64,000 bases of DNA from a virus (Duplodnaviria; Heunggongvirae; Uroviricota; Caudoviricetes). The stretch lies in the IMG/VR virus record IMGVR_UViG_2639762987_000002. The stretch is one strand, 5' to 3'. Every line of letters starts with the position of its first letter. Positions within the stretch are counted from its first letter, which is position 1. Positions 2 through 47,813 of this stretch are shown in pieces. The notes beneath the pieces are model-generated. The model was not told the origin of the DNA, ran no database searches, and worked only from the letters and a program-made list of their open reading frames with translations. Position numbers and translations under genes: made by a program.

Positions 2-1579
2 GATCAATACGGCGATAACTGTGAAGTCTGCGGCGCGACATACAGCCCGACGGAACTGATCGAGCCGAAATCGGTAGTTTCTGGCGCTACGCCGGTAATG
101 CGTGATTCCGAACACTTCTTCTTTGATCTGCCTTCTTTCAGCGAAATGTTGCAGGCATGGACCCGCAGCGGTGCGTTGCAGGAGCAGGTGGCAAACAAAA
201 TGCAGGAGTGGTTTGAATCTGGCCTGCAACAGTGGGATATCTCCCGTGACGCACCTTACTTCGGTTTTGAAATTCCGAACGCACCGGGCAAATACTTCTA
301 CGTCTGGCTGGACGCGCCGATTGGCTACATGGGTTCCTTCAAGAATCTGTGCGACAAACGCGGCGACACTACCAGCTTCGACGAATACTGGAAGAAAGAC
401 TCCACCGCCGAGCTGTACCACTTCATCGGCAAAGATATCGTTTACTTCCACAGCCTGTTCTGGCCTGCCATGCTAGAAGGCAGCAACTTCCGCAAGCCGA
501 CCAACCTGTTTGTTCATGGCTATGTGACGGTGAACGGTGCGAAGATGTCCAAGTCTCGCGGCACCTTTATTAAAGCCAGCACCTGGCTGAATCATTTTGA
601 CGCTGACAGCCTGCGTTACTACTACACTGCGAAACTCTCTTCGCGCATTGATGATATCGATCTCAACCTGGAGGATTTCGTTCAGCGCGTGAATGCCGAT
701 ATCGTGAACAAAGTGGTGAATCTGGCGTCCCGTAACGCGGGCTTTATCAATAAGCGTTTTGACGGTGTGCTGGCAGGCGAACTGGCTGACCCGCAACTGT
801 ACAAAACCTTTACTGATGCCGCTGAAGTGATTGGCGAAGCATGGGAAAGCCGCGAATTTGGTAAAGCTATCCGTGAAATCATGGCACTGGCTGACCTGGC
901 TAACCGCTATGTCGATGAACAGGCTCCGTGGGTGGTGGCGAAGCAGGAAGGTCGCGATGCCGATCTGCAGGCGATTTGCTCTATGGGCATTAACCTGTTC
1001 CGCGTGCTGATGACGTACCTGAAACCGGTACTGCCAAAACTGACTGAACGTGCAGAGGCATTCCTCAATACGGAACTGACCTGGGATGGTATCCAGCAAC
1101 CGCTGTTGGGCCATAAAGTGAATCCGTTCAAAGCTCTGTATAACCGTATCGATATGAAGCAGGTTGAAGCACTGGTGGAAGCGTCTAAAGAAGAAGTCAA
1201 AGCCGCTGCCGCACCGGTAACTGGCCCGCTGGCAGACGATCCGATTCAGGAAACCATCACCTTTGACGACTTCGCCAAAGTTGACCTGCGCGTGGTACTG
1301 ATTGAAAACGCGGAGTTTGTCGAAGGTTCTGACAAACTGCTGCGCCTGACACTGGATCTCGGCGGAGAAAAACGTAATGTCTTCTCAGGCATTCGTTCCG
1401 CTTATCCAGATCCACAGGCACTGATTGGTCGTCACACCATTATGGTGGCTAACCTGGCACCGCGTAAAATGCGCTTCGGTATCTCCGAAGGCATGGTGAT
1501 GGCTGCTGGCCCTGGCGGAAAAGATATCTTCCTGTTAAGCCCGGATGCTGGTGCTAAACCAGGCCACCAAGTTAAGTAA
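2..1579 (+). CDS. metG: methionyl-tRNA synthetase, C-terminal ~526 codons (5'-truncated by window edge)
   Basis: Frame is open from the window start and in frame with the listed ORF 98..1579; translation [18 protein letters not shown]...KMSKSRGTF...GAKPGHQVK matches the class I MetRS zinc-knuckle, KMSKS motif and C-terminal tRNA-binding domain. Confidence 0.95.
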
Positions 1580-2820: not shown

Positions 2821-2930
2821 AACATTGATAATGGCGGTCACAATTTGATTCTTTTCTATAAGAATCCGTTGATCGCCACTACTCCCCTTCCATAGCTGCA
2901 ATCATATCTTTAAATATCAATAGGTTATGG

Positions 2931-3700
2931 TTGTTTATACAAATAAGAAAACAACTAAATAACAGATCAACGAAACGTCAACGCTTTCACCCGATTTGGT
3001 CTAAAAAATTGACGTTTTCACACATCACTTCTTATACCCGTAACTCTACGCAGCAGACAGCGCCACAGCGTCCAATTTTCACCACAGACGACCCAACACA
3101 CTACCAACAAAAACACACGCTCAAAATCGCTCCCGTTGCGTTACACAACCATATAAACAACTTATTTTCAGGCATAACAAAACAACTAAATAACACACAT
3201 GCCATTCCCAAAAACAACCAACCTCTTTATGGCAGGCTACCGAAAAGACCCACCTCTTCTCCCCAGGCTACCGGACAACCAACCTAACTTTCACAGGCAA
3301 TCCGAAAACATTCATACGCGCGATACCCACGACACGCCATTCCCCAAACAGCGAAGAAACACCAGAATCACTGAAACCCCAACGAAGCCTGTAACCGCAA
3401 GGATTCTCTCAATCCCAAAAGACACGAAACATAACAATCACGGGAAATGCCATTACCCAATACACGAATAACTACAAAAGCCTTTCACACACTCCAGACA
3501 AACAACTCAAACACAATAACGAAAGGAATCGCCCACCTGCCATTACTCCATACACGGAGAAGAACAATCACCAAAACGACGAGAACACCCCATAGAAGAA
3601 CCACCGCAAAACGAACGAAACCACATACACCGACAGAGAAAACAACACACCCAATTCACCAACAGAAATAGTCGCCGTATAGAACATTCTGGAAGGAGTG
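2931..3700. repeat. Non-coding CA-rich, G- and T-depleted region with four GCCATTMCC-type direct repeats
   Basis: Top strand roughly 40% A, 40% C, 10% G, 10% T by hand count of one 60-nt line; only low-complexity ORFs; repeats near 3200, 3337, 3448, 3539. Confidence 0.6.
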
Positions 3701-3870
3701 AGCATTAACGCCTATAGAGAGGTTGAGACAGATAAAACACAACATGTATAGCGAAGAAGCCAGGTATGTATAAGTGGGGAGGGAAGGAGGGGTGTCGCCT
3801 CCTTTTTCGTATTTATTCAACTCCTGATTTTATCCCCCCGTAACACCCCTACGGTCAGCCTTCGGTCCAT

Positions 3871-4012
3871 ACAGGGAAAAGGCTGCATCCCGCTACAGAA
3901 ACGGCTGGGTTGCCTTCGGGGAACGGCTGGAGGTTTTCAGGGAAACGGTCGAGTTACCTGTGTGGATTTCGGGAAAAGGCTCGATGCCGGTTCAGGAACG
4001 GTGGCGTACCGG
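3871..4012. repeat. Six tandem iteron-like direct repeats, ~22 bp period, core GGGAAA(A/C)GG(C/T)
   Basis: acagggaaaaggctg / acagaaacggctgg / ttcggggaacggctgg / ttcagggaaacggtcg / tttcgggaaaaggctcg / ttcaggaacggtggcg read directly. Confidence 0.6.
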
Positions 4013-4363
4013 TATAGCGAGAGGAAGAGTTGCGGCTACCCACCTGTAATGTGCGGGAAGAAGAGAGGCGCTCACGTAGGCGGACTTGCTTACCGCTGGA
4101 TTCCCTCTGAATGCCCAGCTACAGCGTAATTGTGCCAGACAGCCAACGGGTCACAATCGATTTCAGTAGGTTTTCGGGGAGAGGATTATTCTGCCCACCA
4201 GCCACTTTCGGCCACTAAATCAGAATAATGTAAAAAGTGTACTCGGTGCTGAACCTGAAAACTCACTGCCAAAACCACATTCACCGGAATAAAATCCTTT
4301 TTCGCCTGTGTGTTATTGCGATAATAACACCATCAAGAAAACATGTTGTTTAAGGATTGCTTT

Positions 4364-4693
4364 ATGTTTGCAAATATCGACATCAACCAAATCAAGAAAA
4401 TGACTCAAAAAGAGTTTGACCAGTTTTATGAGCTGGAAGGTTGGTCTTCCACTCTGATTAATTCAAGATGGGTGCTGGAACTGATGACTCGTGATGACGC
4501 ACCTGCTTTGATGATCAGCGACCTGGGTGAAGATGCTGACTTTATGGATATGAGCGAATTTTGTGTGGACACATACAACCGCAGCCAGAAGTACTACTTC
4601 ACATGCGATAGCGAAAATGACGTGATTTCTAAGGTCTATCTTCACCTCGTCCAGCATTGGGACGTTCAGGAGTTTCTTGAAGTATTCGAGTAA
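4364..4693 (+). CDS. hypothetical early protein (109 aa)
   Basis: ORF; start moved to ATG 4364 after RBS aaggat; the listed 4343 start lies inside the motif-1 palindrome. Confidence 0.55.
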   Translation: MFANIDINQIKKMTQKEFDQFYELEGWSSTLINSRWVLELMTRDDAPALMISDLGEDADFMDMSEFCVDTYNRSQKYYFTCDSENDVISKVYLHLVQHWDVQEFLEVFE

Positions 4694-4846
4694 CCCCAAC
4701 CAAAGCCAGCATTGCTGGCTTAATTTCTCTATAGCCGCAGGGAAGAACCTGCATATAGCTCATGCACCTGATCAATATGCTTTGTAGCCGTTTTCTTACT
4801 GGTATTATTTACGCCATTGAGAAAACAAGTTGTTTACGGAGTTGTG

Positions 4847-5158
4847 ATGAAAAAATCATTGGTTCTTGGTCTGGACAAAGACCAGAAGAGAAAAGAGAAG
4901 CCTGCGCTGGTTGCTCAATTAACTTTGCTGGACATCGTTGCCAATGGAACCTCTATTCGTCTGTTCCGTGAAACAGCGGTGTCTTTCGATAAAAACACCT
5001 TTACTCGTTATGTAATGAATGTTCGTCGCCAGCGTGGAAAAGGCTGGATGGCATATCAAAGAATGTGGCCGGAACATCAGCTCGAACTGGCTTTGATGGA
5101 AGTTAACCGCGTGGCCCAGCAAGAAATTCAGAGAGCATCAGTGATGGCAATAGCCTGA
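4847..5158 (+). CDS. hypothetical early protein (103 aa)
   Basis: ORF; ATG 4847 follows motif-1 and RBS acggag. Confidence 0.55.
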   Translation: MKKSLVLGLDKDQKRKEKPALVAQLTLLDIVANGTSIRLFRETAVSFDKNTFTRYVMNVRRQRGKGWMAYQRMWPEHQLELALMEVNRVAQQEIQRASVMAIA

Positions 5159-5194
5159 TAATGTGCAAGTGGTAATTAGTCGACAGTACGACAG

Positions 5195-5221
5195 CCCCGC
5201 CATCCTTACGGGGTTTTTTTG
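5195..5221 (+). terminator. Rho-independent terminator
   Basis: Hairpin ccccgccatccttacgggg followed by a run of T. Confidence 0.7.
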
Positions 5222-5284
5222 TATTGTAAGTACATACTTATGATCATAGAATATCAAAATAACCAATACACTATGGAGGGTGAA

Positions 5285-5680
5285 ATGACCGTTAAACGCG
5301 AAAAACTGACAGTTGATGTTTACTATGCCTCTGAAACTGCCGAAGGTAAGAATGTGGCAAAAATCACCGTTGTTACGTACAACACCGAAACTGGTGCCGA
5401 AGTCCAGGCCAGTACGATCGTGCGTAAAGGTGATGCCTCCGGCGGCGAGTACGCGACTCAATACCAGTCTATTCTCGATGCAACTGACCCGCTGCTGCTG
5501 AAAATCGAGAACTACTTCCGCCAGGTTGATGAAGAGGTGTTTGAAACCATGATGAGTATGGTTAATTCCGTATTCGCCTCCAGCCTGAACACCAGCACCA
5601 CCTGGATTGGCCAGTATGGTCTGCGCATTACCTCCGGCATTCCTGCTGACACCTTAATCCCTGAAAGCGTATTCGCTTAA
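5285..5680 (+). CDS. hypothetical protein (131 aa)
   Basis: ORF; ATG 5285 preceded by RBS ggaggg; motif-2 palindrome taagtacatactta at 5228-5241. Confidence 0.6.
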   Translation: MTVKREKLTVDVYYASETAEGKNVAKITVVTYNTETGAEVQASTIVRKGDASGGEYATQYQSILDATDPLLLKIENYFRQVDEEVFETMMSMVNSVFASSLNTSTTWIGQYGLRITSGIPADTLIPESVFA

Positions 5681-5691
5681 TCCTCTTTAAA

Positions 5692-5717
5692 TGGCGCGTA
5701 AACCGCGCCATTTTCTT
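5692..5717 (+). terminator. Rho-independent terminator
   Basis: Hairpin tggcgcgtaaaccgcgcca followed by ttttctt. Confidence 0.7.
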
Positions 5718-5797
5718 ATACCCGATAACAATTTGTTTTCTGCCTTATCTGATTTGTGAAAATGATTTCACTGAAGCAAGTTAATAAGGAAACCATC

Positions 5798-6172
5798 ATG
5801 GGACTTGATATCTATATCGAGACACAGCCTAAAAACGATCTGAATAACGAGGCATCCAGAAAGCAGGTTGCTTACTTCCGTAAGTTCAATGCGCTCGTTG
5901 GGTGGATGGAGCGCAACGTAGGTGAAGTCGAAAATTGTGAGCTTTTAGAATTAACGATGAATGACATTTGTTTTCTGAAGGCTCATTTGATGCACATAAA
6001 CGAAAGTAATTGCGAAGAGTACTTGCCTACCCGGGAAGGTTTTTTCTTCGGCAGTCAGGAGTACGATGAAGGTTACTGGCATGATGTGGGGGAGTTGAAA
6101 GAGCTTGTGGAAGATCTGATTAAGAACCACGACTTTCACAATAACAGACTGACCTTCTGCGCCTGGTGGTAA
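5798..6172 (+). CDS. hypothetical protein (124 aa; alternative start GTG 5756)
   Basis: ORF; ATG 5798 has RBS aagga at 7-nt spacing; motif-1 at 5725-5740. Confidence 0.5.
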   Translation: MGLDIYIETQPKNDLNNEASRKQVAYFRKFNALVGWMERNVGEVENCELLELTMNDICFLKAHLMHINESNCEEYLPTREGFFFGSQEYDEGYWHDVGELKELVEDLIKNHDFHNNRLTFCAWW

Positions 6173-6174
6173 AT

Positions 6175-6318
6175 ATGGGCGATTTCAAGAAAACCCTGAA
6201 GGAAAGAGCCGAGATGGTCAGAAAGCAAAACGCCTCTTCTGTCATCAGATACGCAAGGCAGTTTAGTCGCAACAACAAATCAGTTGAGGAAAAGATCCTT
6301 AGCGTAATCGGTCGATAA
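6175..6318 (+). CDS. small hypothetical protein (47 aa)
   Basis: Short ORF hand-translated MGDFKKTLKERAEMVRKQNAS...; starts 2 nt after previous stop with ggtgg upstream; below the ORF-track cutoff. Confidence 0.3.
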   Translation: MGDFKKTLKERAEMVRKQNASSVIRYARQFSRNNKSVEEKILSVIGR

Positions 6319-6522
6319 TTATTAAGGCCATCAGCATTGGTGGCCTTAAATGACCATCCTGTTTCCCGTAGGCTAAAAACACCAACCTCTTACCTCCAGG
6401 CAACCGACAAACCCACCTGTTCCCGTCCGGCTACCGCAACTTTCCACTTTGACGCCTTATTCGTACAACGATAATTAACACCAACAAGAAAACAATTTGT
6501 TATTTACGATAAGGAATTAATC

Positions 6523-7005
6523 ATGAATTTTATCGCTACTGTAAACGCACCCGCACATGGCAATATCGCTGTAACGTTCTCTGACATTGAAAAACGAGTA
6601 CTTGGTGCATGGCGCGACAATGAGACGGTAGAACTGTCAGCACAAGAAAAATGCATTATTGCACGCGACATCATTGGCAATCGTCGTTACTCGCGGGTAT
6701 TTGAGAAAGCGTATGTGGTAAATTCTGGATTCGGAACGTTCGTCTTTCCGGTGCGCTCCGGGCGATTCTGCCAGTCCAAGCTGATTGAGTTCGCTACGCA
6801 GATTTCTGTCTGGATTAAAACTCAATCGTCGTTCAAATTTTCCGACGATGAAGCAGTATCGCAGGGGATGCGGATCGCCAACAATGCAATTAAATGCAAA
6901 AACATTACGTATACCGCTGGCGTTGATACATGGAAACTGTTTTGCGCTAACTTTATGCTGAATGTATACGCAAGCAACCGCATCCACATCCTTGATGGCG
7001 TGTAA
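6523..7005 (+). CDS. hypothetical protein (160 aa)
   Basis: ORF with RBS aaggaa; motif-1 at 6485-6502. Confidence 0.6.
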   Translation: MNFIATVNAPAHGNIAVTFSDIEKRVLGAWRDNETVELSAQEKCIIARDIIGNRRYSRVFEKAYVVNSGFGTFVFPVRSGRFCQSKLIEFATQISVWIKTQSSFKFSDDEAVSQGMRIANNAIKCKNITYTAGVDTWKLFCANFMLNVYASNRIHILDGV

Positions 7006-7012
7006 CTGAGAA

Positions 7013-7036
7013 GAGGGCCAGAAACGGCCCTTTCTC
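7013..7036 (+). terminator. Rho-independent terminator
   Basis: Hairpin agggccagaaacggccct followed by ttctct. Confidence 0.55.
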
Positions 7037-7050
7037 TATAGCCACCAGCT

Positions 7051-7141
7051 GCCGCAGGGAAATTTTCAGAAACGGCAAGGAACGCATTCATGAGCCGATG
7101 GGAAACGGCCAGGATTTTTTCGGGAAACGGCTGCATTCGCC
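7051..7141. repeat. Second array of GGGAAACGGC-type direct repeats (3-4 copies)
   Basis: gcagggaaatttt / cagaaacggcaagg / gatgggaaacggccagg / ttcgggaaacggctgc; same family as 3871-4012. Confidence 0.55.
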
Positions 7142-7259
7142 TTTATGTAGAAAAAACATCGGGAAGCTGGTGGAATCCAACCAGCGGTTGTCGGACAGGT
7201 GAGCGGGGAAAATCATGATGACTTTCGTCGCCTGAGACATCCAGATTTCTTTCGTAGCG

Positions 7260-7315
7260 TAATCACATATGTGATTAAGTGGTGTGATTATGTGAAAAAT
7301 CACGCGCACATAATA
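7260..7315. promoter_or_regulatory. Operator-like nested palindromes, including a perfect 18-bp palindrome
   Basis: taatcacatatgtgatta (7260-7277) is its own reverse complement; followed by gtgattatgtg...cacataat inverted repeats. Confidence 0.5.
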
Positions 7316-7620
7316 CGCGAGCGGATACGGAACAAAACAAAATGCCGATCCGCGCCGACAAATAAACGCGGATCATAAAGCAAGACTAAAAGCCAATGAT
7401 TAACCATACTCTATAGCGCAATATAACGCGTTTTAAGCGCGTTAATGTGTTAAGTAATGGGTATGTACTGGCAAGGATATAAAAGCGCGTCTATGGCGTT
7501 ATTTTGGCGCTTATTTTTATGTTGTTGGAGTGAGTTAAAGACAATAAAAACGCGCCATCATTGGCGCGTTATGGTAGGTGTATTGGAAACGAAAAAAGCG
7601 CCCATAGTGGGCGCTCGATT

Positions 7621-9370: not shown

Positions 9371-9895
9371 TCAAAAAGGCAAAATTCGTTCAACCCAATC
9401 GAACAAAACAACTATTTTTCTACCGTTCTCGACACGTAGTGTAACCTGACAAGCATCTGCGCCTGCTGACACCCCCTCAATTTCACGGCCATCCGCCATG
9501 TACACCCTTATAGATTTGTTTGCTTTGTAGGCTTGGTTGCAAATTGCAAAAAAATCGCGGCGTGATGGCCGATTATCGACATAATCAGGGTGAACTGTTA
9601 GTCGACCTTTGAAATCGTGAGCGATACTGTCAACCACACCTGATTCAATTGTACTAATGCGTTCAAGTGGGAGCCTTATACGATTTTCTTTGTCAAAAGG
9701 GGCTGGGCAAAGGTCAACTTTGTTACGAGATGGCATGAGGCCATAAACGTACATGCAAAACGCCTGGCCATCTTCGAGAGTGACCCTTACAGGAATTTGT
9801 TCTCTGCGCCAGAACATCAGTAGTTTTTCAACGTTAGTGTAATCTCGCGGCCAGAGTTCAGCTTGGATACCGTAGGTAATATCTTTGGTTGTCAT
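9371..9895 (-). CDS. hypothetical protein (174 aa; the listed ORF extends to 9973)
   Basis: ORF; start at internal Met (MTTKDITYG) avoids a 74-nt overlap with the upstream gene. Confidence 0.5.
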   Translation of the reverse strand: MTTKDITYGIQAELWPRDYTNVEKLLMFWRREQIPVRVTLEDGQAFCMYVYGLMPSRNKVDLCPAPFDKENRIRLPLERISTIESGVVDSIAHDFKGRLTVHPDYVDNRPSRRDFFAICNQAYKANKSIRVYMADGREIEGVSAGADACQVTLRVENGRKIVVLFDWVERILPF

Positions 9896-9899
9896 GTCA

Positions 9900-10364
9900 T
9901 CACAGAGTTGTTGGCAGAATGTCGATGTCACCAGAATTGCTGGTGAACACCCTGAACGCTTTTGTGTCTCCATTCTTCAGAGTCGTTTCTCGCTCTTGAC
10001 GAGCGTGGTTTAGAGCACATAAACCTGCACCTTCAAGAGATGCACCCACAATTAATTCTCCGGCATTTAAATGGAAAGTCGCTTTTTCGCCTGTAGCCAG
10101 TTTTGCGACAGTTTCGCCGTTGATGAAAATGGAAGCATCACATCCAGCTCCTACAAAACCTGTGTCTCTCATTACCACCAACGTAGCTGGCGCTGCGCTT
10201 TGATACTTGAACACTTTGGCCTGCGGTGCTGGTTTGGCGTCATGGATTGATATTGGGCGTGATTGGCACGCGGTAAGCATCAACACTGGTAACGTTAGTA
10301 GAGGGAGAAGCGAGTATTTCATGATAGTTTTAGAACAGAAAGTGAACAGTATGGGAGACTTCAT
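9900..10364 (-). CDS. lipoprotein (154 aa)
   Basis: Lipobox LTAC after hydrophobic stretch LLPLLTLPVLM; strong RBS agggag before ATG at 10364. Confidence 0.6.
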   Translation of the reverse strand: MKSPILFTFCSKTIMKYSLLPLLTLPVLMLTACQSRPISIHDAKPAPQAKVFKYQSAAPATLVVMRDTGFVGAGCDASIFINGETVAKLATGEKATFHLNAGELIVGASLEGAGLCALNHARQERETTLKNGDTKAFRVFTSNSGDIDILPTTL

Positions 10365-12313: not shown

Positions 12314-12994
12314 ATGGATGTAAAAATCACGATTTTGCAGGTTGATGTTGCCAACCTTCGCCCGAATACCTGGAACACCAATTCGGTTGGTGCGCAGAAT
12401 TTTGAAAAACTGAAAGGTTCTATCGAAAAATTGGGCTTTTTTAAGCCAATTTTGGCTCGTGAACTTGAAGATGGATTTTTTGAAATCCTCGGCGGCGAAC
12501 ATCGCTGGCGTGCTGCTATTGAGCAAGGAATTTCAACGGTTCCGGTGCTTTCTGTGGGCAAAATTAGCGATGTCGTAGCTAAACAGATGTCACTGGTGGA
12601 CAACGAGCGATACGGTGAAGACGACCAAATCGCATTGCAACGCTTCATTGAAGAAATTCAGTCAGAACTTGACTATCAACTGTCTGAAATCGCCCCGTAT
12701 GACGACGAAATCTCGATGGTTTTAGCAAAAGAGGCGGCAATCGACCTTGAAGCACTGGAGGCGTTGTCTCGTGGTAGTGATGAGCCTGTCGATACCGACA
12801 AACGAGAGAAAACCGAACGTGTGGGTGCGGAACATCAGACCATGCGCTTCAAAGTAACTTTCGATGCGTCAGATCGTGTTGCAGAAACCATAAAAAACAT
12901 CATCAAAGAGCAGGCTATTAACACCGGTAATGAAATGGAGAACGCTGGTGAGGCTCTGGTGTGGCTGGTCGACTACTACAAGGAGCGTATGTAA
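12314..12994 (+). CDS. ParB-like nuclease-domain protein (226 aa)
   Basis: ILGGEHRWRAA matches the ParB/Srx-fold GxxR box; motif-2 palindrome at 12279-12296. Confidence 0.65.
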   Translation: MDVKITILQVDVANLRPNTWNTNSVGAQNFEKLKGSIEKLGFFKPILARELEDGFFEILGGEHRWRAAIEQGISTVPVLSVGKISDVVAKQMSLVDNERYGEDDQIALQRFIEEIQSELDYQLSEIAPYDDEISMVLAKEAAIDLEALEALSRGSDEPVDTDKREKTERVGAEHQTMRFKVTFDASDRVAETIKNIIKEQAINTGNEMENAGEALVWLVDYYKERM

Positions 12995-13662
12995 TGACCA
13001 AAAAGTTTGAAATCGTATATCGCGACCCGGCAGATCTTATTCCCTATGAGATGAATGCCAAAAAGCATGATGAACAGCAGATCCGAGATCTGGCCGCAGC
13101 CATTAAAAAGCGCGGATTTGACCAGCCAATTACGGTCGATAAGAACGACGTAATTATTACTGGCCACGGCCGCCGTGAGGCTGCAATTTTTGCTGGACTT
13201 GAGCGCGTACCGGTTATTGTTCGCGATGATCTCAGTGATGACGAGGTTCGTGCGAAGCGCCTTGAAGATAACCGACTTGCCAGCATTGATTACGATGCAA
13301 TTAAGCTACAGAAAGAGCTTGAGTCGCTCGTTCTGGACGATATCGAGGTTTTCGGCTTTGAAGAGCGTGAGTTGAATGTTCTCGTTGGCAGTATGACAGA
13401 AGAAATGGACACCGACTCGCTAGTTATCGATCTTGGCGAAGAAACTAAACGACAGAAGGATGAACACACCGAGATCAGTCGTGAAGTTGCAGCGGAAGAA
13501 GTACGTGTTGTCGACGTATTGGGCTTTAAAACGCTCCCTGCTGGCTCTGCCATTGTTGTTGGTGATTTGCTTGCCCACATGGAAGAAATGACGGGAGAAA
13601 GCGGGGTAGACGCATTTGTGGCATATGCGGAGAAGATCTCTTCCGGGGAGATGGCTGCATGA
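12994..13662 (+). CDS. ParB-like nuclease-domain protein, second copy (222 aa)
   Basis: ITGHGRREAAIFAG motif; start overlaps the previous stop (TAATG). Confidence 0.65.
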   Translation: MTKKFEIVYRDPADLIPYEMNAKKHDEQQIRDLAAAIKKRGFDQPITVDKNDVIITGHGRREAAIFAGLERVPVIVRDDLSDDEVRAKRLEDNRLASIDYDAIKLQKELESLVLDDIEVFGFEERELNVLVGSMTEEMDTDSLVIDLGEETKRQKDEHTEISREVAAEEVRVVDVLGFKTLPAGSAIVVGDLLAHMEEMTGESGVDAFVAYAEKISSGEMAA

Positions 13663-14324
13663 GCAAATACATCATCAACGTATCGTTTCAGACACGCGTA
13701 AATAAAACCACGCGCACGTTGGAAATCGCTGAGTCGTTCGGGCTTGGCCTGGACGAAAAAGAGTGGACGCTTTACGACAATCTGGAGCTGGAAGTGAAGC
13801 AGGGCGATGTGGTGTACATCACCGGCCAATCCGGTTCCGGCAAATCCGTTGTGCTGCGCGAGTTGCAACGACAGATGAAGGATGAAGGGCTGTCTGTAGC
13901 CTCCATCGATGATTTTACCTTCGATAATGAGGTTAACGTCATCGATCAGTTGGGCAAAACGACCAGTGATGCGCTTGGGTTGTTATCTATGGCTGGTCTG
14001 AACGATGCATATCTGTTTGTTCGCAAGCCTTCTGAAATGTCAGACGGCCAGAAATATCGTCTCAAGATTGCCAAACTGATTGAGTCAGGCGCTAAAGTGT
14101 GGGCTGCTGACGAGTTCGGCGCTGTTCTCGACCGTGTAACCGCTCAGGTTGTGGCGTCTAACCTCCAGCGTGCCGCGCGAAAGGTTGGTGCGACGGTAAT
14201 GGTGGCGACGACTCACGAAGACCTGAAGAACGCGCTGCGCCCGGATATGCAGATCACCAAGCACTACAAAGAACGCGTGAAGGTGGAATATCACAATGGT
14301 AGTCATGATGAGGTCCATTCATGA
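13659..14324 (+). CDS. ABC-type P-loop ATPase (221 aa)
   Basis: Walker A GQSGSGKS, signature-like SDGQKYRL, Walker B VWAADEF, H-loop ATTHED. Confidence 0.7.
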   Translation: MSKYIINVSFQTRVNKTTRTLEIAESFGLGLDEKEWTLYDNLELEVKQGDVVYITGQSGSGKSVVLRELQRQMKDEGLSVASIDDFTFDNEVNVIDQLGKTTSDALGLLSMAGLNDAYLFVRKPSEMSDGQKYRLKIAKLIESGAKVWAADEFGAVLDRVTAQVVASNLQRAARKVGATVMVATTHEDLKNALRPDMQITKHYKERVKVEYHNGSHDEVHS

Positions 14325-15211
14325 CGGACATCATCATTAAACGCTACCGCCCTGAAGAGTTTCCGCGTCATCTGGACTTTCTGGAGCGAATGACTGTTAC
14401 AAAGGGAACTGTAGAGGACTGGCACGCTCTTAAGTCGCTTCACTACAAAACAGACGGCAAACCTTTCGCGCCAACTTACTATCGCTGCGAACTTGATGAC
14501 CGTCTGGTGGGCGTCGTGGTTATGGCTTACCCGAAACTACTGTTGGCACCTCGCCACCGCATGTTTCCTAAGTTGAAACCAACCACTAATACCACCGTGG
14601 CTAACCAGTACTGGGGTCGGTACGTGAATAACAACTTTGCGGTGATCAGTCGCTCAGTTGTGGATACTCAGTATCGTGGCGTAGGCGTCTCTTATCGAAT
14701 GATTAACCTGGTTAGCAGGATGCATGACCGGCCAATCATTGAGATCCAGTCCTCGATGAGCAAATACAATCCCTTCGCCATGAAAGCAGGGTTTAAGTTC
14801 ATCCGCCCTGAGCGACCGAAGAGCTATGAAAGTGCACTGCGTGTATTCCAGCGCCATTTCCGTTCCGACCCGGGTGATAACGAGGCGATCGTCAAAGAGT
14901 TGTTCGCAATGAGCGAGTCTCGTCGTCGCCGTGCACTGCGTGATCTGGTGGCGGACTACCACAAGAACAGTTCCCTGGCAAAAGCTGGGCGGAATCGTGG
15001 CACGACGATTCAGGACATTGCCGACAGTCTGGTGGACGAGGCCAGCATTGTGAAGCTGCTCAAGGACATTCACAACCTGAGCTTTACGTCTCCGTTGTAT
15101 GGTGTGTACCGAAACCCTGACTTTGGCCGTCGACTGCCTGACACGCTGCCACTGCTGGCATTCGACAAACAACCTTTGGATAAACCGTTAGAAATTGCTT
15201 TACCGGCATAA
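14321..15211 (+). CDS. hypothetical protein with GNAT-like acetyltransferase motif (296 aa)
   Basis: RSVVDTQYRGVGVSYRMINLV resembles GNAT motif A; 4-nt overlap with the upstream ATPase gene. Confidence 0.45.
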   Translation: MTDIIIKRYRPEEFPRHLDFLERMTVTKGTVEDWHALKSLHYKTDGKPFAPTYYRCELDDRLVGVVVMAYPKLLLAPRHRMFPKLKPTTNTTVANQYWGRYVNNNFAVISRSVVDTQYRGVGVSYRMINLVSRMHDRPIIEIQSSMSKYNPFAMKAGFKFIRPERPKSYESALRVFQRHFRSDPGDNEAIVKELFAMSESRRRRALRDLVADYHKNSSLAKAGRNRGTTIQDIADSLVDEASIVKLLKDIHNLSFTSPLYGVYRNPDFGRRLPDTLPLLAFDKQPLDKPLEIALPA

Positions 15212-15220
15212 GGATTTGCC

Positions 15221-15487
15221 ATGACGTTAACCGACAAACAAAAGGACATCATCAAAACGCTCAATCTCGGTTATGAGCGAGGTCATCTACTTGATCTGGA
15301 CGAATTGCTTGAAGTTTTGCCGTACAAGACAACCAAGCAAAGTATCCAGTTCTCAATTCGCGCTCTGATAAAAAAGGGGCTGGTGGAGAAAGGGCATACG
15401 CGCCAACGCAGTGACAATCGCTATCACCGCCGGACTCTTGGGTTAACCACTTTAGGTCGAGCCAAAGCGAAGTTACTGGTGATGTAA
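15221..15487 (+). CDS. small basic putative DNA-binding protein (88 aa)
   Basis: ORF with RBS aagga; basic C-terminus. Confidence 0.5.
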   Translation: MTLTDKQKDIIKTLNLGYERGHLLDLDELLEVLPYKTTKQSIQFSIRALIKKGLVEKGHTRQRSDNRYHRRTLGLTTLGRAKAKLLVM

Positions 15488-15511: not shown

Positions 15512-15567
15512 CCTGCTTCTGTATATATAAATAATAAGTAACTTATTAAATATATACGGAAGCAGGC
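15512..15567. repeat. 56-bp near-perfect palindrome, copy A
   Basis: cctgcttctgtatatataaataataagtaacttattaaatatatacggaagcagg; a second copy differing at one position lies at 47759-47813. Confidence 0.85.
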
Positions 15568-15682: not shown

Positions 15683-16315
15683 ATGACGGTCGAAAAAGAC
15701 GAGGTAAAAACTCGCCTGACACCAGCGGAGTGGGCCGAAGCTGAAGCCAAATGGACGTCAGGCGAATATACACTCTCAAAGCTGGAGGAAGAGTACGGCA
15801 TTCGTCGTGAAACACTCTCCAGACATTTCAAAAAGCGAGGATTAGAGAAAGGCGCGGACTCTGTTGGGAAGATGGTTCGTGAGTCTCTTAAATCTGACGC
15901 AGAGCTTCGCGCTAAAGCCCGTGCGGAAAAGATAGAAGAACGTCGTACACGTTATGACGGCTGGGCGTATGCGTTGGGGCAGATGGTGATGGTCGAAGTC
16001 ACTACGGCCAAACGTGAGGGTAAGCCTTTAGGGGCGATTGAGGATTCTCTCAAGAGCTTACAGAGAGCCAGTAATACCCTTGCAAAATGCTTTGAAGTTT
16101 CGTCCAAAGCATTGGGCATGGATCATGCGGAAAATGACGAGGAAGAAATTCCGAACCTGGTATTTGGTGAGCTTACGCCTTCCCAGGTGGCGAAATTACG
16201 TCAGGAAGACGACGAGCCTGAAATCATCGATGACGAATTGCTTGAGACGTTGGAAGAAGAAGCTCTAAGCGAATTTGATGCGACAGATGATGGAAGTGAA
16301 GGGGAGGACGAATAA
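15683..16315 (+). CDS. terminase small subunit (210 aa)
   Basis: N-terminal HTH-like EYGIRRETLSRHFKKRG, acidic C-terminus, immediately upstream of the large terminase. Confidence 0.6.
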   Translation: MTVEKDEVKTRLTPAEWAEAEAKWTSGEYTLSKLEEEYGIRRETLSRHFKKRGLEKGADSVGKMVRESLKSDAELRAKARAEKIEERRTRYDGWAYALGQMVMVEVTTAKREGKPLGAIEDSLKSLQRASNTLAKCFEVSSKALGMDHAENDEEEIPNLVFGELTPSQVAKLRQEDDEPEIIDDELLETLEEEALSEFDATDDGSEGEDE

Positions 16316-38046: not shown

Positions 38047-41000
38047 ATGTGGTACAGGGAAGGTACTATCACATTTACACAGGGCAGCAATACTCTGGTT
38101 GGGGCAGGTACAGCCTGGAACGTAACAGCTAATGGTGTGTTGCCGGGGATGATCGTCATTGGCCCCGACAATAAGCTGTATGAGATCAAGCGCGTAACCA
38201 GTGATACGAACATTGTTCTCTCAGAACCTTATACCGGCGAAACTCAGTCTGAAGTTCCGTGCCGAATCATTACGACCTATGAAGGCGACTTAACACAGTT
38301 TAGCGCGCGCTTTACAGCACTAATGTCGCGTATGTCGGCTGATTCCAAGTCCATGCGCAGTTGGTTGACTGCTCTGGATGAGGTGACAATCGAGCGTGAA
38401 GACGGTACAGAAGTGACCGTTAAGCCGCTAATGCAGATCGTCAACGAGCACAACGAAAACGTTGAGTGGTATAAAAATAACACTGACGCGATTGATGCTG
38501 CTGGCGACAAAGCTCGTGAGGCGGCGGCCAGTGCTGCCGCAGCAGCAAAAAGCGCCAATGCCGCTGGAGAAAAAGCCTCTCAAGCGTCTCAAAGTGCATC
38601 CGCTGCGGCATCCTCACAAAGTGCCGCAAGTGCGAGTGCAACTGCTGCGAAAAAATCTGAAACGAATGCTGCAGCGTCACAAAAATCTGCAGCCACTTCT
38701 GCATCCACCGCGACCACGAAGGCGTCAGAAGCTGCCACCTCAGCCCGGGATGCGGCGGCCTCAAAAGAGGCAGCAAAATCATCAGAAACGAGCGCAGCCT
38801 CGAGCGCCAGTAATGCCGCTTCCTCGGCAACGGCGGCTGGAAATTCCGCGAAGGCGGCAAAAACGTCCGAGACGAACGCCAGGTCTTCTGAAACGGCAGC
38901 GGGACAGAGCGCCTCGGCTGCGGCAGGCTCAAAAACAGCGGCTGCGTCGTCTGCCAGTGCCGCGTCAACAAGTGCCGGGCAGGCCTCAGCCAGTGCCACC
39001 GCCGCCGGAAAATCGGCAGAAAGTGCCGCATCGTCTGCTTCAACGGCCACAACGAAGGCTGGCGAAGCCACTGAACAGGCCAGCGCAGCAGCGAGGTCTG
39101 CTTCCGCAGCGAAGACATCCGAAACGAACGCGAAAGCGTCGGAAACCCGTGCAGAATCCTCAAAAACGGCAGCCGCATCGTCCGCCAGTTCGGCAGCGTC
39201 ATCGGCATCATCTGCGTCTGCTTCAAAAGATGAGGCGACCAGACAGGCGTCAGCAGCGAAGGGCAGCGCCACGACGGCATCCACGAAAGCAACAGAGGCG
39301 GCAGGCAGTGCGACGGCTGCATCTCAGAGCAAAACTGCTGCCGAATCTGCTGCGACTCGTGCAGAAGCTGCCGCTGATCGTGCTGAAGAGATTGCCGGTG
39401 CAGTTGCGATGGAAGACGCAAGCCTTACAACTAAAGGTGTTGTGAAACTTAGCAGTGCTGTCGATAGCACCAGTGAATCGCTGGCTGCAACGCCAAAGGC
39501 AGTTAAAACTGTTAAAGATAGTTCAGTTCAAAAAACTGGCGACACAATGGGAGGGCAGTTAAAAATCGGCACGATAAATGCTCTTCGAATATTCAACCAA
39601 GCCTTTGGCCTTATTTTTAGGCGTTCCGAAGATTATATTCATCTTATCCCGACTAATGAAGGGGAGGGAGAAAATGGAGACATCGGTTCATTAAGACCAT
39701 TCTCTATAAACTTAAGATCAGGGTTGGTGTCCATCGGTAATGGACTAAAAGTTGGTGGTAGTGTTACTGGTAATTTGACCGGAAACGCAGATACTGCGAC
39801 CAAGATCAAGACAGCACGTAAGATTGGGGGCGTGGCATTTGATGGATCGGCAGATATCAACTTGCCTGGAGTCAACGCTACCGGTAATCAAAACACTACA
39901 GGTAATGCTGCGACCGCCACGAAACTTCAGGCAGCCAGAACGATTAACGGTGTGTCATTTGATGGTAGTGCAAATATCACATTGACCCCTTCAAATATTG
40001 GGGCGTTGGCATTAACTGGAGGGACTCTTTCAGGTGGTTTAACTGCTGCTGGTGAGATTATTTCAAAGTCAGCAAATGGTCTGCGTATTGCCTATGGCAA
40101 CTATGGATTCTTTATCCGAAATGATGGCTCAAATACATATTTTATGTTGACAGATTCGGGTAACAGTCTTGGTACGTACAATAGCTTAAGGCCGTTTATA
40201 ATTAGTAACTCTACTGGCAATGTTACAATTGCAACTAAATTAAACGCGAGTAGTGGTATCACTGGATCTTTATCGGGTAATGCAAGCACAGCAACCAAAT
40301 TGCAGACAGCAAGAACCATCGGTGGTGTTAGCTTCGATGGCACTGCGAATATTAATTTGCCTGGTGTTAATGCTGCCGGTAATCAGAACACTACCGGTAA
40401 CGCGGCCACAGCGACCAAGTTGCAAACAGCTAGAACTATTAACGGGGTGTCGTTTAACGGCTCTGCGAATATTTCAATACCAACAATTACGTCCAGAGGG
40501 CGCGTTACTGCGCTCACCGGTACAACACAAGGTGCTGCGACTGGATTGCAGATGTACGAGGCATATAACAATGGCTACCCTTCGTCTTACGGGAATGTGC
40601 TTCATCTTAAGGGCGCAACGGCCGTTGGTGAAGGTGAGTTGTTCATAGGTTGGAGCGGTACAAGTGGTGCTCATGCACCTGTACATGTACGTTCGCGACG
40701 AGATACGGATACATCCAGTTGGTCTGAATGGGCGCAAGTTTATACGTCCAAAGACTCAATTCCAGGTGTCAATGCCACCGGTAATCAGAACACTACTGGC
40801 AACGCAGCCTCTGCAACGAAGTTGCAGACAGCCAGAACAATTGGAGGTGTGTCGTTTAATGGCACCGCCAATATTAACTTGCCGGGTGTTAATATAGCGG
40901 GTAATCAGAATACGACTGGTAACGCAGCTTCAGCCACGAAGTTACAAACGGCTCGTACTATCGGTGGTGTTAGTTTTAACGGCACAGCCAATATTAACTT

Positions 41001-45799: not shown

Positions 45800-46468
45800 A
45801 TGACCAAGATCTTTGTGGTTGGCGGCACAAAGGGCGGGCCTGGCAAATCCACCGTTGCCCAGCAAATTGCCGTTTGCCTGAAAGTCAAAAAGAAGAAGAA
45901 GGTTTATATCACTGATATAGATATTCAGCGCACGACAACAAGCTGGTGTGAAGACCGTCGACAGAACGAAGACCTTGAGCTGATTCCTTTTGCATACGTT
46001 CAGGATGACATCATTAAGCACCTAAAATCGCTTCAGGGTAGAGCTGAGTTTGTAGTGGTAGATGCTGGTGGCTTCGACTCCGAAATTCAGCGACAAGCGA
46101 TGCTGATGGCTGACGTTATCATTATCCCGCTGCGTCCTAAGCGTCGTGATTTGAAATCTTTACGTGACATCGATCCTATTATCGACAATGTTCGCAATGT
46201 AAACGATAAAGTGAAGGTCCGCGCGGTCATGAACCAGTGCCCGGCTTTGCCATCACAAGTGTCTCGCATTCTGGCGGCTAAAGAGATTGTTGAGACGTTT
46301 GGCATCGAGTCTGCGCCAGTCAATCTATATAACCGCAACGTCTATGATGATGCGGAAGAGTCTGGTCGTTCTATCTTTGAAATGACCGGTAGCGAGCGCG
46401 ACAAAAAGGCGGAAGCCGAGTTTGAAGAATTTGTAGATTATCTGTTGAGTCTGGAGGAAGAAGAATAA
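45800..46468 (+). CDS. parA: ParA/ParF-type partition ATPase (222 aa)
   Basis: Deviant Walker A GGTKGGPGKST; followed by a small RHH protein; motif-1 upstream. Confidence 0.8.
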   Translation: MTKIFVVGGTKGGPGKSTVAQQIAVCLKVKKKKKVYITDIDIQRTTTSWCEDRRQNEDLELIPFAYVQDDIIKHLKSLQGRAEFVVVDAGGFDSEIQRQAMLMADVIIIPLRPKRRDLKSLRDIDPIIDNVRNVNDKVKVRAVMNQCPALPSQVSRILAAKEIVETFGIESAPVNLYNRNVYDDAEESGRSIFEMTGSERDKKAEAEFEEFVDYLLSLEEEE

Positions 46469-47758: not shown

Positions 47759-47813
47759 CCTGTTTCTGTATATATAAATAATAAGTAACTTATTAAATAT
47801 ATACGGAAGCAGG
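47759..47813. repeat. 55-bp near-perfect palindrome, copy B
   Basis: cctgtttctgtatatataaataataagtaacttattaaatatatacggaagcagg; one difference from copy A. Confidence 0.85.

What the first reader, a model, noticed from the sequence alone, without database searches (positions are those of the whole stretch)
3871..7141. Iteron-like arrays of GGGAAACGGC direct repeats at three early-region loci
Six tandem ~22-bp repeats at 3871-4012, a related copy at 4739-4757, three to four at 7051-7141 and inverted-orientation relatives at 6358-6430 share the core GGGAAA(A/C)GGC. The ~22-bp period resembles plasmid iterons or arrays of regulator binding sites, so these may mark an origin of replication or centromere-like site.
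Basis: seen in the sequence. Interest (0 to 1): 0.55.

Follow-up and report, generated by a model that had tools for sequence, protein, structure and literature searches.

The report
Conserved protein-binding repeat arrays, phage-plasmid
Two arrays of a short DNA motif (GGGAAACGG, repeated every 22 bases) are real and conserved in the whole SSU5/pHCM2/pMT1 family of phage-plasmids; they look like docking sites for an unidentified DNA-binding protein, and they are not the plasmid's known replication origin.

Summary
The window is an SSU5-type phage-plasmid, 97% identical to Escherichia phage Cyrano. Two of the four reported loci are real arrays. A1 (3872-4012) has six units. A3 (7055-7134) has three full units plus a half unit. 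The units are direct repeats of an asymmetric core, CRGGGAAAMGGC, mostly 22 bp apart. The copy at 4738 is weak and found only in the E. coli lineage. The "inverted relatives" at 6358-6430 belong to a different, C-rich repeat family. The cores occur nowhere else in about 107 kb and are invariant in about 50 distinct homologues. This includes Yersinia pMT1 and a Klebsiella lineage whose neighbouring proteins are only 33-50% identical. Spacers and flanks diverge, and whole units are gained or lost. I found no support for an RNA or hairpin reading. The plasmid origin (RepA, different 21-bp iterons, DnaA-box-like TGTGGATAA motifs) lies about 34 kb away in Cyrano coordinates, outside the window, so these are not RepA iterons. 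The par operon is 40 kb away and has its own conserved operator. Best reading: phased duplex-DNA binding sites for one unidentified conserved protein. Their function is most likely control or initiation of RepA-independent (phage-mode) replication, with transcriptional or architectural control as a close rival. This is a new member of a known kind, of moderate interest.

The parts
3781..3807 (+). Intrinsic terminator that ends the upstream CA-rich transcription unit, just before A1
   Evidence: Terminator scan. The hairpin is conserved in relatives.
3808..3871 (+). Conserved leader between the terminator and A1 (GTATTTATTCAA...CCCCCGTAACACCCCTNCGGTC)
   Evidence: It holds many invariant columns across the 7 sequences aligned, and the pattern holds across the 35 distinct homologues. 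Function unknown.
3872..4012 (+). Array A1: six direct units of CRGGGAAAMGGCYGG with spacings 22, 22, 22, 31, 22
   Evidence: Cores are invariant and spacers variable in 35 distinct homologues. PhiR41_1-type relatives lack exactly one 22-bp unit.
4053..4065 (+). Degenerate outlying unit (GCGGGAAGAAGAG) downstream of A1
   Evidence: Read from the sequence. The GCGG(G/T)A part is conserved in the alignments; SSU5 has GCGGGAAATGG here.
4170..4184 (+). Degenerate outlying unit (GTTTTCGGGGAGAGG)
   Evidence: Read from the sequence. The Klebsiella relatives carry GGTTTTCGGGA / GGTTATCGGGAA near the 3' end of their aligned stretch, downstream of their A1; that segment is not aligned to the window sequence, so homology with this position is my inference.
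4738..4754 (+). Weak single copy 'A2' (CAGGGAAGAACCTGCAT); probably a remnant, not a functional member
   Evidence: family D4. Present only in the E. coli lineage.
7013..7036 (+). Intrinsic terminator of the 160-aa gene, just before A3
   Evidence: Read from the sequence. This is the only helix in the A3 region with compensatory support in 50 aligned sequences. The consensus terminator scan did not list it.
7042..7049 (-). Chi octamer (GCTGGTGG on the minus strand) inside the conserved CCACCAGCTGCCGCAGGG leader of A3
   Evidence: CCACCAGC is nearly invariant in the A3 alignment.
7055..7134 (+). Array A3: half unit CAGGGAAA (7055), then units CAGAAACGGC (7066), GGGAAACGGC (7100) and GGGAAACGGC (7122); T-tract between the last two
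   Evidence: 49 distinct homologues are aligned with the window sequence (50 rows), and the last two cores with their TTTT spacer are invariant. Present in pMT1 and in the divergent lineage CP055187.
7159..7173 (+). Degenerate unit TCGGGAAGCTGG overlapping a plus-strand Chi (7166-7173)
   Evidence: (family D3). CGGGAG/A is conserved.
6355..6440 (+).
   Evidence: 76% identical in direct orientation to 3196-3340.

Best explanation
A1 and A3 are tandem, mostly helically phased binding sites on duplex DNA for one sequence-specific protein. That protein is encoded either by the conserved core of SSU5-type phage-plasmids or by the enterobacterial host. Each 22-bp unit offers one asymmetric site of about 11-13 bp (CRGGGAAAMGGCYGG), often preceded by a T-tract. 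Monomers or like-oriented protomers would therefore line up head to tail on one face of the helix and build a higher-order complex at two places 3.2 kb apart, bracketing the cassette of small early genes.

Shown: the arrays exist, they are unique in the genome, the cores are under strong purifying selection, they are not RepA iterons, and nothing supports an RNA structure.

Inferred: that a protein binds them. I put this at about 0.85.

Inferred more weakly: that the complex acts in DNA replication in the RepA-independent phage mode, as a second origin or an origin enhancer or control pair of the P4 ori/crr or SPP1 oriL/oriR type. I put this at about 0.35, the single most likely function. The binder is not identified.
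For: Anatomy. Six plus three to four co-oriented units, with 22 bp the dominant spacing. Among the other distinct spacing values seen (31, 33, 34, 43, 53, 12, 28, 37), six lie near whole helical turns; 28 and 37, both in CP055187, do not.

Uniqueness. A whole-genome scan of Cyrano finds the core only at A1 and A3 apart from one isolated match (L004 33383), all on one strand. In the divergent CP055187 genome the cores cluster only at the homologous A1 and A3 positions; the rest are scattered single matches on both strands.

Selection. In 49 distinct A3 homologues and 35 distinct A1 homologues the cores are invariant while spacers and flanks vary. Blastn homology with Klebsiella and Salmonella relatives stops right after A3. 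The cores persist in CP055187, where the flanking proteins are 33-50% identical and the replicon type differs. Whole-unit indels occur.

DNA rather than RNA. Folding z-scores are +0.58, -0.20 and -0.10. Only the upstream terminator has clear compensatory support. Complementarity between each core and its own 3' spacer equals the permuted control (4.08 against 4.03, p 0.36). No Rfam family matches.

Replication context. The arrays sit in and next to a conserved gene-free stretch of about 1.5 kb (2830-4340) with an extremely strand-skewed, apparently transcribed segment. A UvsW-type helicase gene lies 3.5 kb downstream. By Cyrano's annotation the element encodes its own DnaB-like helicase, primase, Pol III alpha, ligase and proteins annotated UvsY, gp32-like SSB and RecA, so a RepA-independent replication mode is expected.

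Precedent, from established knowledge: paired binding-site clusters kilobases apart in P4 (ori/crr), SPP1 (oriL/oriR) and R6K.
Against: No AT-rich unwinding element and no DnaA box adjoins either array: GC is 0.50-0.54 over A1.

A lytic origin would more usually lie beside the helicase-loader and helicase genes, and an AT-rich 55-bp palindrome sits there at 47759-47813.

Cumulative GC skew is uninformative.

Both arrays lie just after terminators and point the same way as transcription, which would also suit a transcriptional role.

No binder could be tied to the motif by covariation, because the core never varies.
Confidence: 0.4

Rival explanations
1. Transcriptional or architectural control. 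The arrays bind a regulator that forms a phased filament of the P2 Cox / 186 Apl / lambda Xis type, or a roadblock or insulator. It would sit at the boundaries of the early transcription units, stopping read-through into the convergent minus-strand genes after A3 and separating the CA-rich transcription unit from the early gene cassette at A1.
For: Both arrays start 19-65 bp after intrinsic terminators and share the orientation of plus-strand transcription. A3 lies in a convergent junction (7005-7620) packed with terminators on both strands. Phased direct repeats are what Cox- and Apl-type proteins bind (established knowledge). The region is densely regulated: an operator-like palindrome sits at every early promoter.
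Against: A3 has no downstream plus-strand promoter or gene to control. A1 is 330 bp from the next promoter. The one promoter-proximal copy (4738) is not conserved. Six to eight sites is many for a simple operator. The nearby FljA-like regulator varies (65-80% identity among near-identical genomes, 36% in CP055187) while the cores never change.
Confidence: 0.25
2. Partition centromere. The arrays are the missing centromere of the type Ib ParA (45800-46468) / RHH ParG-like (46468-46827) system, placed far from the operon as in phage-plasmid N15. Alternatively they are loading sites for the two ParB_N-domain proteins at 12314-13662.
For: Tandem direct repeats without an AT-rich flank are typical of centromeres. 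I saw no repeat array upstream of parA, where the only notable motif is a single palindromic operator. N15 has dispersed centromeres (established knowledge). Two ParB-family genes lie 5 kb from A3 in a block that is syntenic in every lineage, including pMT1.
Against: Type Ib centromeres normally overlap the par promoter. Here that promoter carries a conserved palindrome (AAGAAAACA-NN-TTGTTT) found at 12 or more other promoters. By analogy with omega/delta of pSM19035 and KorB of RK2, that palindrome is the better candidate for the RHH protein's site. The Yersinia pMT1 record examined keeps A3 intact although no Yersinia record appears among the genera listed for the 797 plasmids with a ParG-like gene (the tail of five unnamed genera cannot hold the 55 Yersinia records), while those 55 Yersinia plasmids do carry the 160-aa gene that precedes A3. 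This is weak evidence because Y. pestis is a young clone. The ParB_N proteins show no recognisable HTH and also match methyltransferase-associated ParB domains.
Confidence: 0.15
3. Packaging recognition. The arrays are binding sites for the small terminase subunit or an accessory winged-helix protein, of the cosB or pac type.
For: Phased direct repeats with T-tracts resemble SPP1 pacL and lambda cosB. As I recall it from memory (not checked here), the lambda cosB R-site core CGTTTCC is the complement of GGAAACG, which lies inside the array core. An 88-aa winged-helix-like protein sits just upstream of terS and is 78% conserved in the divergent lineage.
Against: The arrays are 8.5-11.8 kb from terS (15683). 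TerS has no Nu1-like or other family match. A 62-kb derivative that has lost the morphogenesis genes keeps both arrays, and pMT1 keeps A3; both may be recent deletions. Two separate arrays 3.2 kb apart are not expected for a single pac site.
Confidence: 0.08
4. RNA-level element. Read-through transcripts carry the repeats as binding sites or a sponge for an RNA-binding protein, for example the FljA-like protein encoded at 9371-9973, or as a CsrA-type sponge.
For: All units are on the transcribed strand. The FljA family acts on the fliC 5'UTR (my knowledge; the primary papers were not available). The E. coli fliC 5'UTR contains TGAGCCGACGGGTGGAAAC, and Cyrano-type A3 contains TGAGCCGACGGGAAAC, a 12-nt exact match that I estimate at roughly 1e-3 by chance, post hoc. 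The FljA-like protein matches PF03614 at E 2.5e-84 and has a faint Hfq-like stretch.
Against: The arrays lie downstream of terminators. There is no excess folding, no clear covariation and no unit-level hairpins. The motif is not ANGGA in loops, and Rfam gives no hit. The 12-mer is limited to the E. coli lineage; Klebsiella and Salmonella have AACCGAMGGG. Klebsiella lacks flagella (my knowledge) yet keeps both the arrays and the FljA-like gene. The FljA-like protein diverges while the cores do not.
Confidence: 0.07

Closest known systems
Iteron clusters of theta-replicating plasmids and phage-plasmids (P1 incC/incA, F RepFIB, R6K)
   Same: Asymmetric direct repeats with a period of about two helical turns; several copies; two clusters bracketing a small gene cassette; copy number changes in whole units.
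   Different: No Rep gene, DnaA box or AT-rich unwinding element next to the arrays. Only about half of each 22-bp unit is conserved. The element's real RepA iterons lie elsewhere and are unrelated in sequence.
Paired phage origin elements: P4 ori/crr and SPP1 oriL/oriR
   Same: Two clusters of the same short initiator-binding repeat, kilobases apart in one phage genome, bound by one protein.
   Different: In P4 and SPP1 the initiator gene is known and lies adjacent to or overlaps one cluster, and AT-rich DNA adjoins it. Here neither is seen.
Dispersed centromeres and operators of plasmids and phage-plasmids (N15 sopC-like sites, RK2 KorB OB sites, pSM19035 omega sites)
   Same: Cis sites for a partition or regulatory protein placed far from its gene, in intergenic DNA.
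   Different: Those sites are palindromes or heptad blocks, and one copy overlaps the par promoter. In this element that description fits the AAGAAAACA-NN-TTGTTT palindrome, not the GGGAAACGG arrays.
P2 Cox boxes, 186 Apl sites and lambda Xis sites
   Same: Tandem direct repeats in helical phase that nucleate a bent protein filament.
   Different: Those sites have a period of 10-11 bp, sit at a promoter switch or attachment site, and number up to about 7 at one locus. Here the period is 22 bp, there are two loci, and no promoter is overlapped.
Lambda cosB R sites and SPP1 pacL boxes (small-terminase binding sites)
   Same: Short repeated sites with intrinsic bends. The GGAAACG core equals the complement of the lambda R-site core, as I recall it from memory.
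   Different: Not adjacent to the terminase genes. Lambda R sites are three in mixed orientation around an IHF site. No Nu1-like protein is encoded.

Membership tests
RepA (RepFIB-type) plasmid origin iterons | Repeat sequence equals the iteron bound by the element's RepA | tested here: not met
   RepA iterons in Cyrano are CTCTCTATAGTGGATA-like with a 21-bp period. They share no similarity with GGGAAACGGC.
RepA (RepFIB-type) plasmid origin iterons | Arrays flank or adjoin the rep gene | tested here: not met
   repA is at Cyrano 60633-61688, about 34 kb from the arrays in Cyrano coordinates and outside the window.
Iteron-type replication origin (any initiator) | Tandem direct repeats of about 17-22 bp in helical phase | tested here: met
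   22-bp dominant spacing; other spacings are mostly near whole turns.
Iteron-type replication origin (any initiator) | Adjacent AT-rich unwinding element and, usually, DnaA boxes | tested here: not met
   GC is 0.50-0.54 over A1 and 0.475 around A3. No TTATCCACA match with up to 1 mismatch between 2195 and 9572.
Iteron-type replication origin (any initiator) | Supports replication, or exerts incompatibility, when cloned | not testable with these tools
   Needs cloning and replication assays.
Type Ib partition centromere (parH/parC-like) | Site lies next to or overlaps the promoter of the parA / centromere-binding-protein operon | tested here: not met
   The par operon is at 45800-46827, about 40 kb away. 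Its upstream DNA carries a different, conserved palindrome.
Type Ib partition centromere (parH/parC-like) | Co-occurs with its par operon across relatives | tested here: inconclusive
   About 750 plasmids probably have both. Yersinia pMT1 plasmids carry the adjacent 160-aa gene, and the one examined carries A3, but no ParG-like gene. Y. pestis is too young a clone for decay to be expected.
Type Ib partition centromere (parH/parC-like) | Bound by the RHH centromere-binding protein and stabilises an unstable replicon | not testable with these tools
   Needs EMSA or ChIP and stability assays.
CsrB/RsmZ-type protein-sponge RNA | Own promoter and terminator; repeated GGA motifs exposed in hairpin loops | tested here: not met
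   The arrays follow a terminator. No excess folding (z +0.58 to -0.20). Unit hairpins are no better than controls. No Rfam match.
Lambda-like cosB / pac site | Immediately adjacent to the terminase genes and the cleavage site | tested here: not met
   terS is at 15683-16315, 8.5 kb from A3.
Lambda-like cosB / pac site | Bound by the small terminase subunit; virion DNA ends map nearby | not testable with these tools
   No data on DNA ends. Public records are linearised at different arbitrary points.
FljA (PF03614) target site | Sequence resemblance to the fliC 5'UTR target, and covariation with the regulator | tested here: inconclusive
   A 12-nt identity with the fliC 5'UTR exists in the E. 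coli lineage only. The regulator diverges (36-80% identity) while the cores stay fixed.

The most novel reading that the evidence does not exclude
The two arrays are the cis-acting sites of a so far undescribed, RepA-independent DNA transaction system common to all SSU5/pHCM2/pMT1-type phage-plasmids. One version is a phage-mode (lytic) replication origin pair, fired by a small initiator with no known fold that is encoded between the arrays and coupled to the adjacent 0.9-kb CA-rich early transcript. The other is a set of loading sites for the paired ParB_N-domain proteins, acting as sliding-clamp silencers of the early region.
Probability: 0.25. Interest if true: 0.65.

Novelty: new member of a known kind. 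Interest (0 to 1): 0.48.

Why it matters
SSU5-type phage-plasmids are very common in clinical Enterobacterales. At least 800 PLSDB plasmids carry the adjacent 160-aa gene, among them Salmonella Typhi pHCM2, Yersinia pestis pMT1 and carriers of KPC and CTX-M resistance genes. Apart from the RepFIB replicon typing marker, none of the papers returned by my full-text searches on SSU5, phage-plasmids, origins of replication, pHCM2 and iterons concerned these arrays or other cis-acting DNA sites; I read only titles and abstracts.

A motif that is unique in the genome and invariant across lineages whose proteins have drifted to 33% identity marks an essential protein-DNA interaction. Identifying the binder would show how these elements switch from low-copy plasmid replication to phage replication, or how they silence their early region. 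It would also give a handle for curing or destabilising them, because arrays cloned on a multicopy vector could titrate the factor. If the arrays turn out to be a lytic origin, they would be the first mapped for this family.

Tried and rejected
1. RepA iterons: rejected. The sequence and the location both differ.

2. RNA structure or sponge: rejected. Folding z-scores are near zero on both strands and in SSU5. RNAalifold clearly supports only the terminator. My own test of complementarity between each core and its spacer equals the controls. Rfam has no hit.

4. Binder by covariation: impossible, because the core is identical in every lineage, including CP055187.

5. FljA link. The 12-nt identity with the fliC 5'UTR is real but lineage-specific, and the regulator is variable. 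The primary FljA papers were not held.

6. Other elements with the same arrays. The viral-contig scan returned about 70 SSU5-type homologues plus about 20 unrelated repeats that share no proteins with the window.

7. Cumulative GC skew of the whole Cyrano genome rises monotonically, so it gives no origin signal.

8. DnaA boxes: at chance level, and none near the arrays.

9. The ParB1 homologue search listed only close relatives, so no distant genomic contexts could be examined.

10. Sigma-28, sigma-32, sigma-54 and ECF promoter readings of the repeats or the A1 leader were checked by eye and fitted poorly.

Full report
WHAT THE WINDOW IS. Bases 3600-7400 are 97% identical over their full length to Escherichia phage Cyrano (OV696614) and to phage-plasmid CMS-2020a. 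They are 94% identical to PhiR41_1 and partly homologous (79-81%) to Klebsiella phage-plasmids. A more sensitive search also finds Salmonella phage SSU5. So the window comes from an SSU5-type phage-plasmid of about 108 kb. In the Cyrano annotation the finding lies in a run of small plus-strand hypothetical genes. This run sits between a phage-borne methionyl-tRNA synthetase gene and a minus-strand block that holds an FljA-like regulator and a UvsW-type helicase, followed by two ParB_N-domain genes and the terminase genes.

CHECKING THE OBSERVATION. A1 (3872-4012) has six co-oriented units with spacings 22, 22, 22, 31 and 22. A3 has three full units (spacings 33 and 22) preceded by a half unit at 7055. 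The exact 10-mer GGGAAAMGGC occurs 4 times against 0.19 expected. A 14-mer consensus with up to 3 mismatches occurs 16 times against 4.3 expected, and five of those hits lie in the arrays. No shuffle reached either number. Tandem Repeats Finder misses the arrays because only about half of each unit is conserved.

The copy at 4738 resembles A1 unit 1 (14 of 17 positions) but has a damaged core and exists only in the E. coli lineage. The stretch 6358-6430 is not an inverted relative. It is 76% identical, in direct orientation, to 3196-3340 and belongs to a separate C-rich repeat family.

NOT THE PLASMID ORIGIN. Cyrano's RepA gene is at 60.6-61.7 kb, about 34 kb from the arrays in Cyrano coordinates and outside the window. 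It is flanked by classical 21-bp iterons (CTCTCTATAGTGGATA), TGTGGATAA DnaA-box-like motifs and GATC-rich DNA. These iterons share nothing with GGGAAACGGC. Near the arrays there is no DnaA box and no AT-rich flank. The divergent relative CP055187 has a different replicon type (rep_cluster_2469 instead of IncFIB) yet keeps both arrays. The arrays are therefore independent of RepA.

CONSERVATION. About 70 are homologues of A1 or A3 on SSU5-type contigs. The rest share no proteins with the window apart from terminase-large-subunit and ParB-like matches in three of them, and look unrelated.

I aligned 49 distinct A3 homologues and 35 distinct A1 homologues. The cores (GGGAAA[C/A]GG) and the TTTT tract before the last A3 unit are invariant or nearly so, while spacers and flanks vary. 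Blastn similarity to Klebsiella and Salmonella relatives ends just after A3. PhiR41_1-type genomes lack exactly one 22-bp unit of A1, and the Klebsiella lineage lacks another stretch, so copy number changes by whole units.

Yersinia pestis pMT1 carries an intact A3; within the 14-kb pMT1 locus examined no A1 cores are found and that position is occupied by nrdB and an IS. In K. pneumoniae plasmid CP055187 the neighbouring proteins are only 33-50% identical to those of the window. Both arrays are nevertheless present at the homologous positions with the same core, and the cores cluster nowhere else in 108 kb; the remaining hits are scattered single matches on both strands. In Cyrano the core is likewise confined to A1 and A3, apart from one isolated match, all on one strand. 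This pattern is the signature of purifying selection on a sequence-specific recognition site.

DNA OR RNA? The arrays lie on the transcribed strand just after terminators, so I tested an RNA reading. Minimum free energies are no better than dinucleotide shuffles: z is +0.58 for the plus strand, -0.20 for the minus strand and -0.10 for SSU5. RNAalifold on 50 A3 sequences (the window plus its 49 homologues) gives clear compensatory support only to the upstream terminator hairpin; one further pair inside the array shows a G-C to C-G swap in 10 sequences but a C-C mismatch in another 10.

By eye, many units seem able to pair GGGAAA with a downstream TTTCCC-like stretch. I tested this on 38 units from five lineages. 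The best stem between each core and its own spacer (mean 4.08) equals the value obtained when spacers are permuted among units (4.03, p 0.36) or reversed (4.21). Rfam gives no match. Apart from 22, the spacing values seen are 31, 33, 34, 43, 53, 12, 28 and 37; all but 28 and 37 (both in CP055187) lie near whole helical turns. I conclude that the arrays are sites on duplex DNA.

WHO BINDS? This could not be settled.

- The FljA-like regulator (PF03614, E 2.5e-84) looked attractive. The E. coli fliC 5'UTR shares a 12-nt exact match (TGAGCCGACGGG, followed by GAAAC) with the Cyrano-type A3 unit. But that 12-mer is limited to the E. coli lineage. The regulator is only 65-80% identical among otherwise near-identical genomes and 36% identical in CP055187, while the cores never change. 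Non-flagellate Klebsiella (my knowledge) keeps both.
- The best-conserved DNA-binding candidates between lineages are an 88-aa winged-helix-like protein before terS (78%) and the two ParB_N proteins (66%).
- A host factor cannot be excluded.

THE CENTROMERE IDEA. The type Ib ParA and its RHH partner are at 45.8-46.8 kb. Their promoter carries the palindrome AAGAAAACA-NN-TTGTTT, which is conserved there in CP055187 too. This palindrome occurs at 12 or more promoters in the window: 21 strand hits against 0.83 expected. By analogy with omega/delta of pSM19035 and KorB of RK2 (established knowledge), that palindrome is the more likely site for the RHH protein, not the GGGAAACGG arrays. pMT1 has A3 but no ParG-like gene. 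This is weak evidence, because Y. pestis is a young clone. I keep the centromere reading at about 0.15.

CONTEXT THAT BEARS ON FUNCTION. A1 ends a gene-free stretch of about 1.5 kb that is conserved as an architecture in all lineages. It starts with a promoter-like site and an operator-like half palindrome near 2804-2964. About 0.9 kb of extremely C+A-rich, G-poor DNA follows (GC skew down to -0.49, AT skew up to +0.50), then a terminator, a conserved 60-nt leader, and the G-rich array.

By Cyrano's annotation the element encodes its own DnaB-like helicase, primase, Pol III alpha, ligase, RNase H, a UvsW helicase and proteins annotated UvsY, gp32-like SSB and RecA. A RepA-independent replication mode must therefore exist, and its origin is unknown. 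Paired clusters of one binding site a few kilobases apart are known from P4 (ori/crr), SPP1 (oriL/oriR) and R6K.

Against an origin here: there is no unwinding element or initiator gene, and an AT-rich 55-bp palindrome lies just upstream of the helicase operon (47759-47813) and again before terS (15512-15566). GC skew is uninformative. A 62-kb derivative without morphogenesis genes keeps both arrays, which argues mildly against a purely packaging role.

VERDICT. The arrays are real, genome-unique, strongly conserved tandem protein-binding sites: a new member of the iteron, centromere or operator-array kind.

- Probability that they are duplex-DNA binding sites under selection: about 0.85.
- Phage-mode replication origin or control: about 0.35.
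- Transcriptional or architectural control: about 0.25.
- Centromere or ParB loading site: about 0.15.
- Packaging: about 0.08.
- RNA-level element: about 0.07.

Its plasmid-origin reading is refuted and its centromere reading is not supported. Interest is moderate: an essential, uncharacterised protein-DNA interaction in a clinically widespread family, directly testable by pull-down and deletion.

Noticed in passing
window 1663, 1714, 3156, 4338, 4822, 5725, 6489, 10645, 15604, 15629, 45751, 48681, 60268: A palindromic operator-like motif, AAGAAAACA-NN-TTGTTT(A), gives 21 strand hits against 0.83 expected. It lies between the -10 element and the ribosome-binding site of most early genes, overlaps the parA promoter, and precedes terS and the DnaB-like helicase gene. 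It is conserved in the divergent lineage CP055187. It looks like a dispersed operator, possibly for the RHH ParG-like protein (omega- or KorB-like logic) or for the prophage repressor.
   Followed up: partly
window 2830-3780: About 0.95 kb of extremely C+A-rich, G-poor DNA (GC skew to -0.49, AT skew to +0.50). It runs from a promoter-like site and operator half-site to a strong terminator. The annotated ORF (2931-3287) looks like a translation of non-coding DNA. The same compositional block precedes A1 in SSU5, Klebsiella and CP055187. It may be a long, unstructured early non-coding RNA (Rho or Hfq substrate?) or a GT-rich recombination or replication element.
   Followed up: partly
window 3217-3310 and 6355-6440: A second repeat family (CCNACCT-N9-AGGCTACCG, about 30-34 nt period), 76% identical between the two loci. 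Function unknown.
   Followed up: partly
window 4195, 7042, 7166 and 11 further sites: The Chi octamer GCTGGTGG occurs 14 times against 1.4 expected. Two copies flank A3, both oriented to meet RecBCD travelling towards the array, and one lies 180 bp after A1. The CCACCAGC before A3 is nearly invariant across lineages.
   Followed up: partly
window 15512-15566 and 47759-47813: The same AT-rich palindrome of about 55 bp (CCTGCTTCTGTATATATAAATAATAAGTAACTTATTAAATATATACGGAAGCAGG) lies upstream of terS and upstream of the 249-aa plus DnaB-like helicase operon. It contains TATAAATA, like a T4 late promoter. It could be a promoter or regulator site, or an alternative origin candidate.
   Followed up: no
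window 3712 (minus strand), 4727, 7034, 7409: CTCTATAG, the left half of the RepA iteron core CTCTATAGTGG, occurs four times, all within 3.7 kb, and twice directly after a terminator (TTTCTCTATAGCC). Four against 0.86 expected; 3 of 100 shuffles reach this.
   Followed up: partly
window 9371-9973 (minus strand); L103 370-400: The FljA-family regulator (PF03614) is unusually variable among near-identical phage-plasmids (65-80% identity), as immunity-type regulators are. The E. coli fliC 5'UTR shares a 12-nt exact string with Cyrano-type A3. This may hint that the chromosomal FljA / fliC-operator pair descends from such elements.
   Followed up: partly
window 12314-15487: A conserved cluster directly upstream of terS: two ParB_N-domain proteins, an ABC-type ATPase (87% conserved in CP055187), a 296-aa protein with no family, and an 88-aa winged-helix-like protein. 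The ParB_N domains also match ParB domains fused to type II methyltransferases in PADLOC.
   Followed up: partly
window 98-1579: C-terminal part of a full-length class I methionyl-tRNA synthetase (with a tRNA-binding domain) carried by the phage-plasmid.
   Followed up: no
window 40765-41119: Three tandem copies of a 120-nt unit (73% matches), presumably a coding repeat in a tail-fibre gene.
   Followed up: no
window 7141-7620: The non-coding convergent junction after A3 holds three minus-strand terminators in series and one plus-strand terminator-like hairpin that shares its stem with one of them (7597-7615). There is a palindrome ATCACATATGTGAT and a weak, sub-threshold Rfam hit (Hrs1, E 0.18, 7542-7608). 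Small RNAs may be encoded here. The stretch is conserved only in the E. coli lineage.
   Followed up: no
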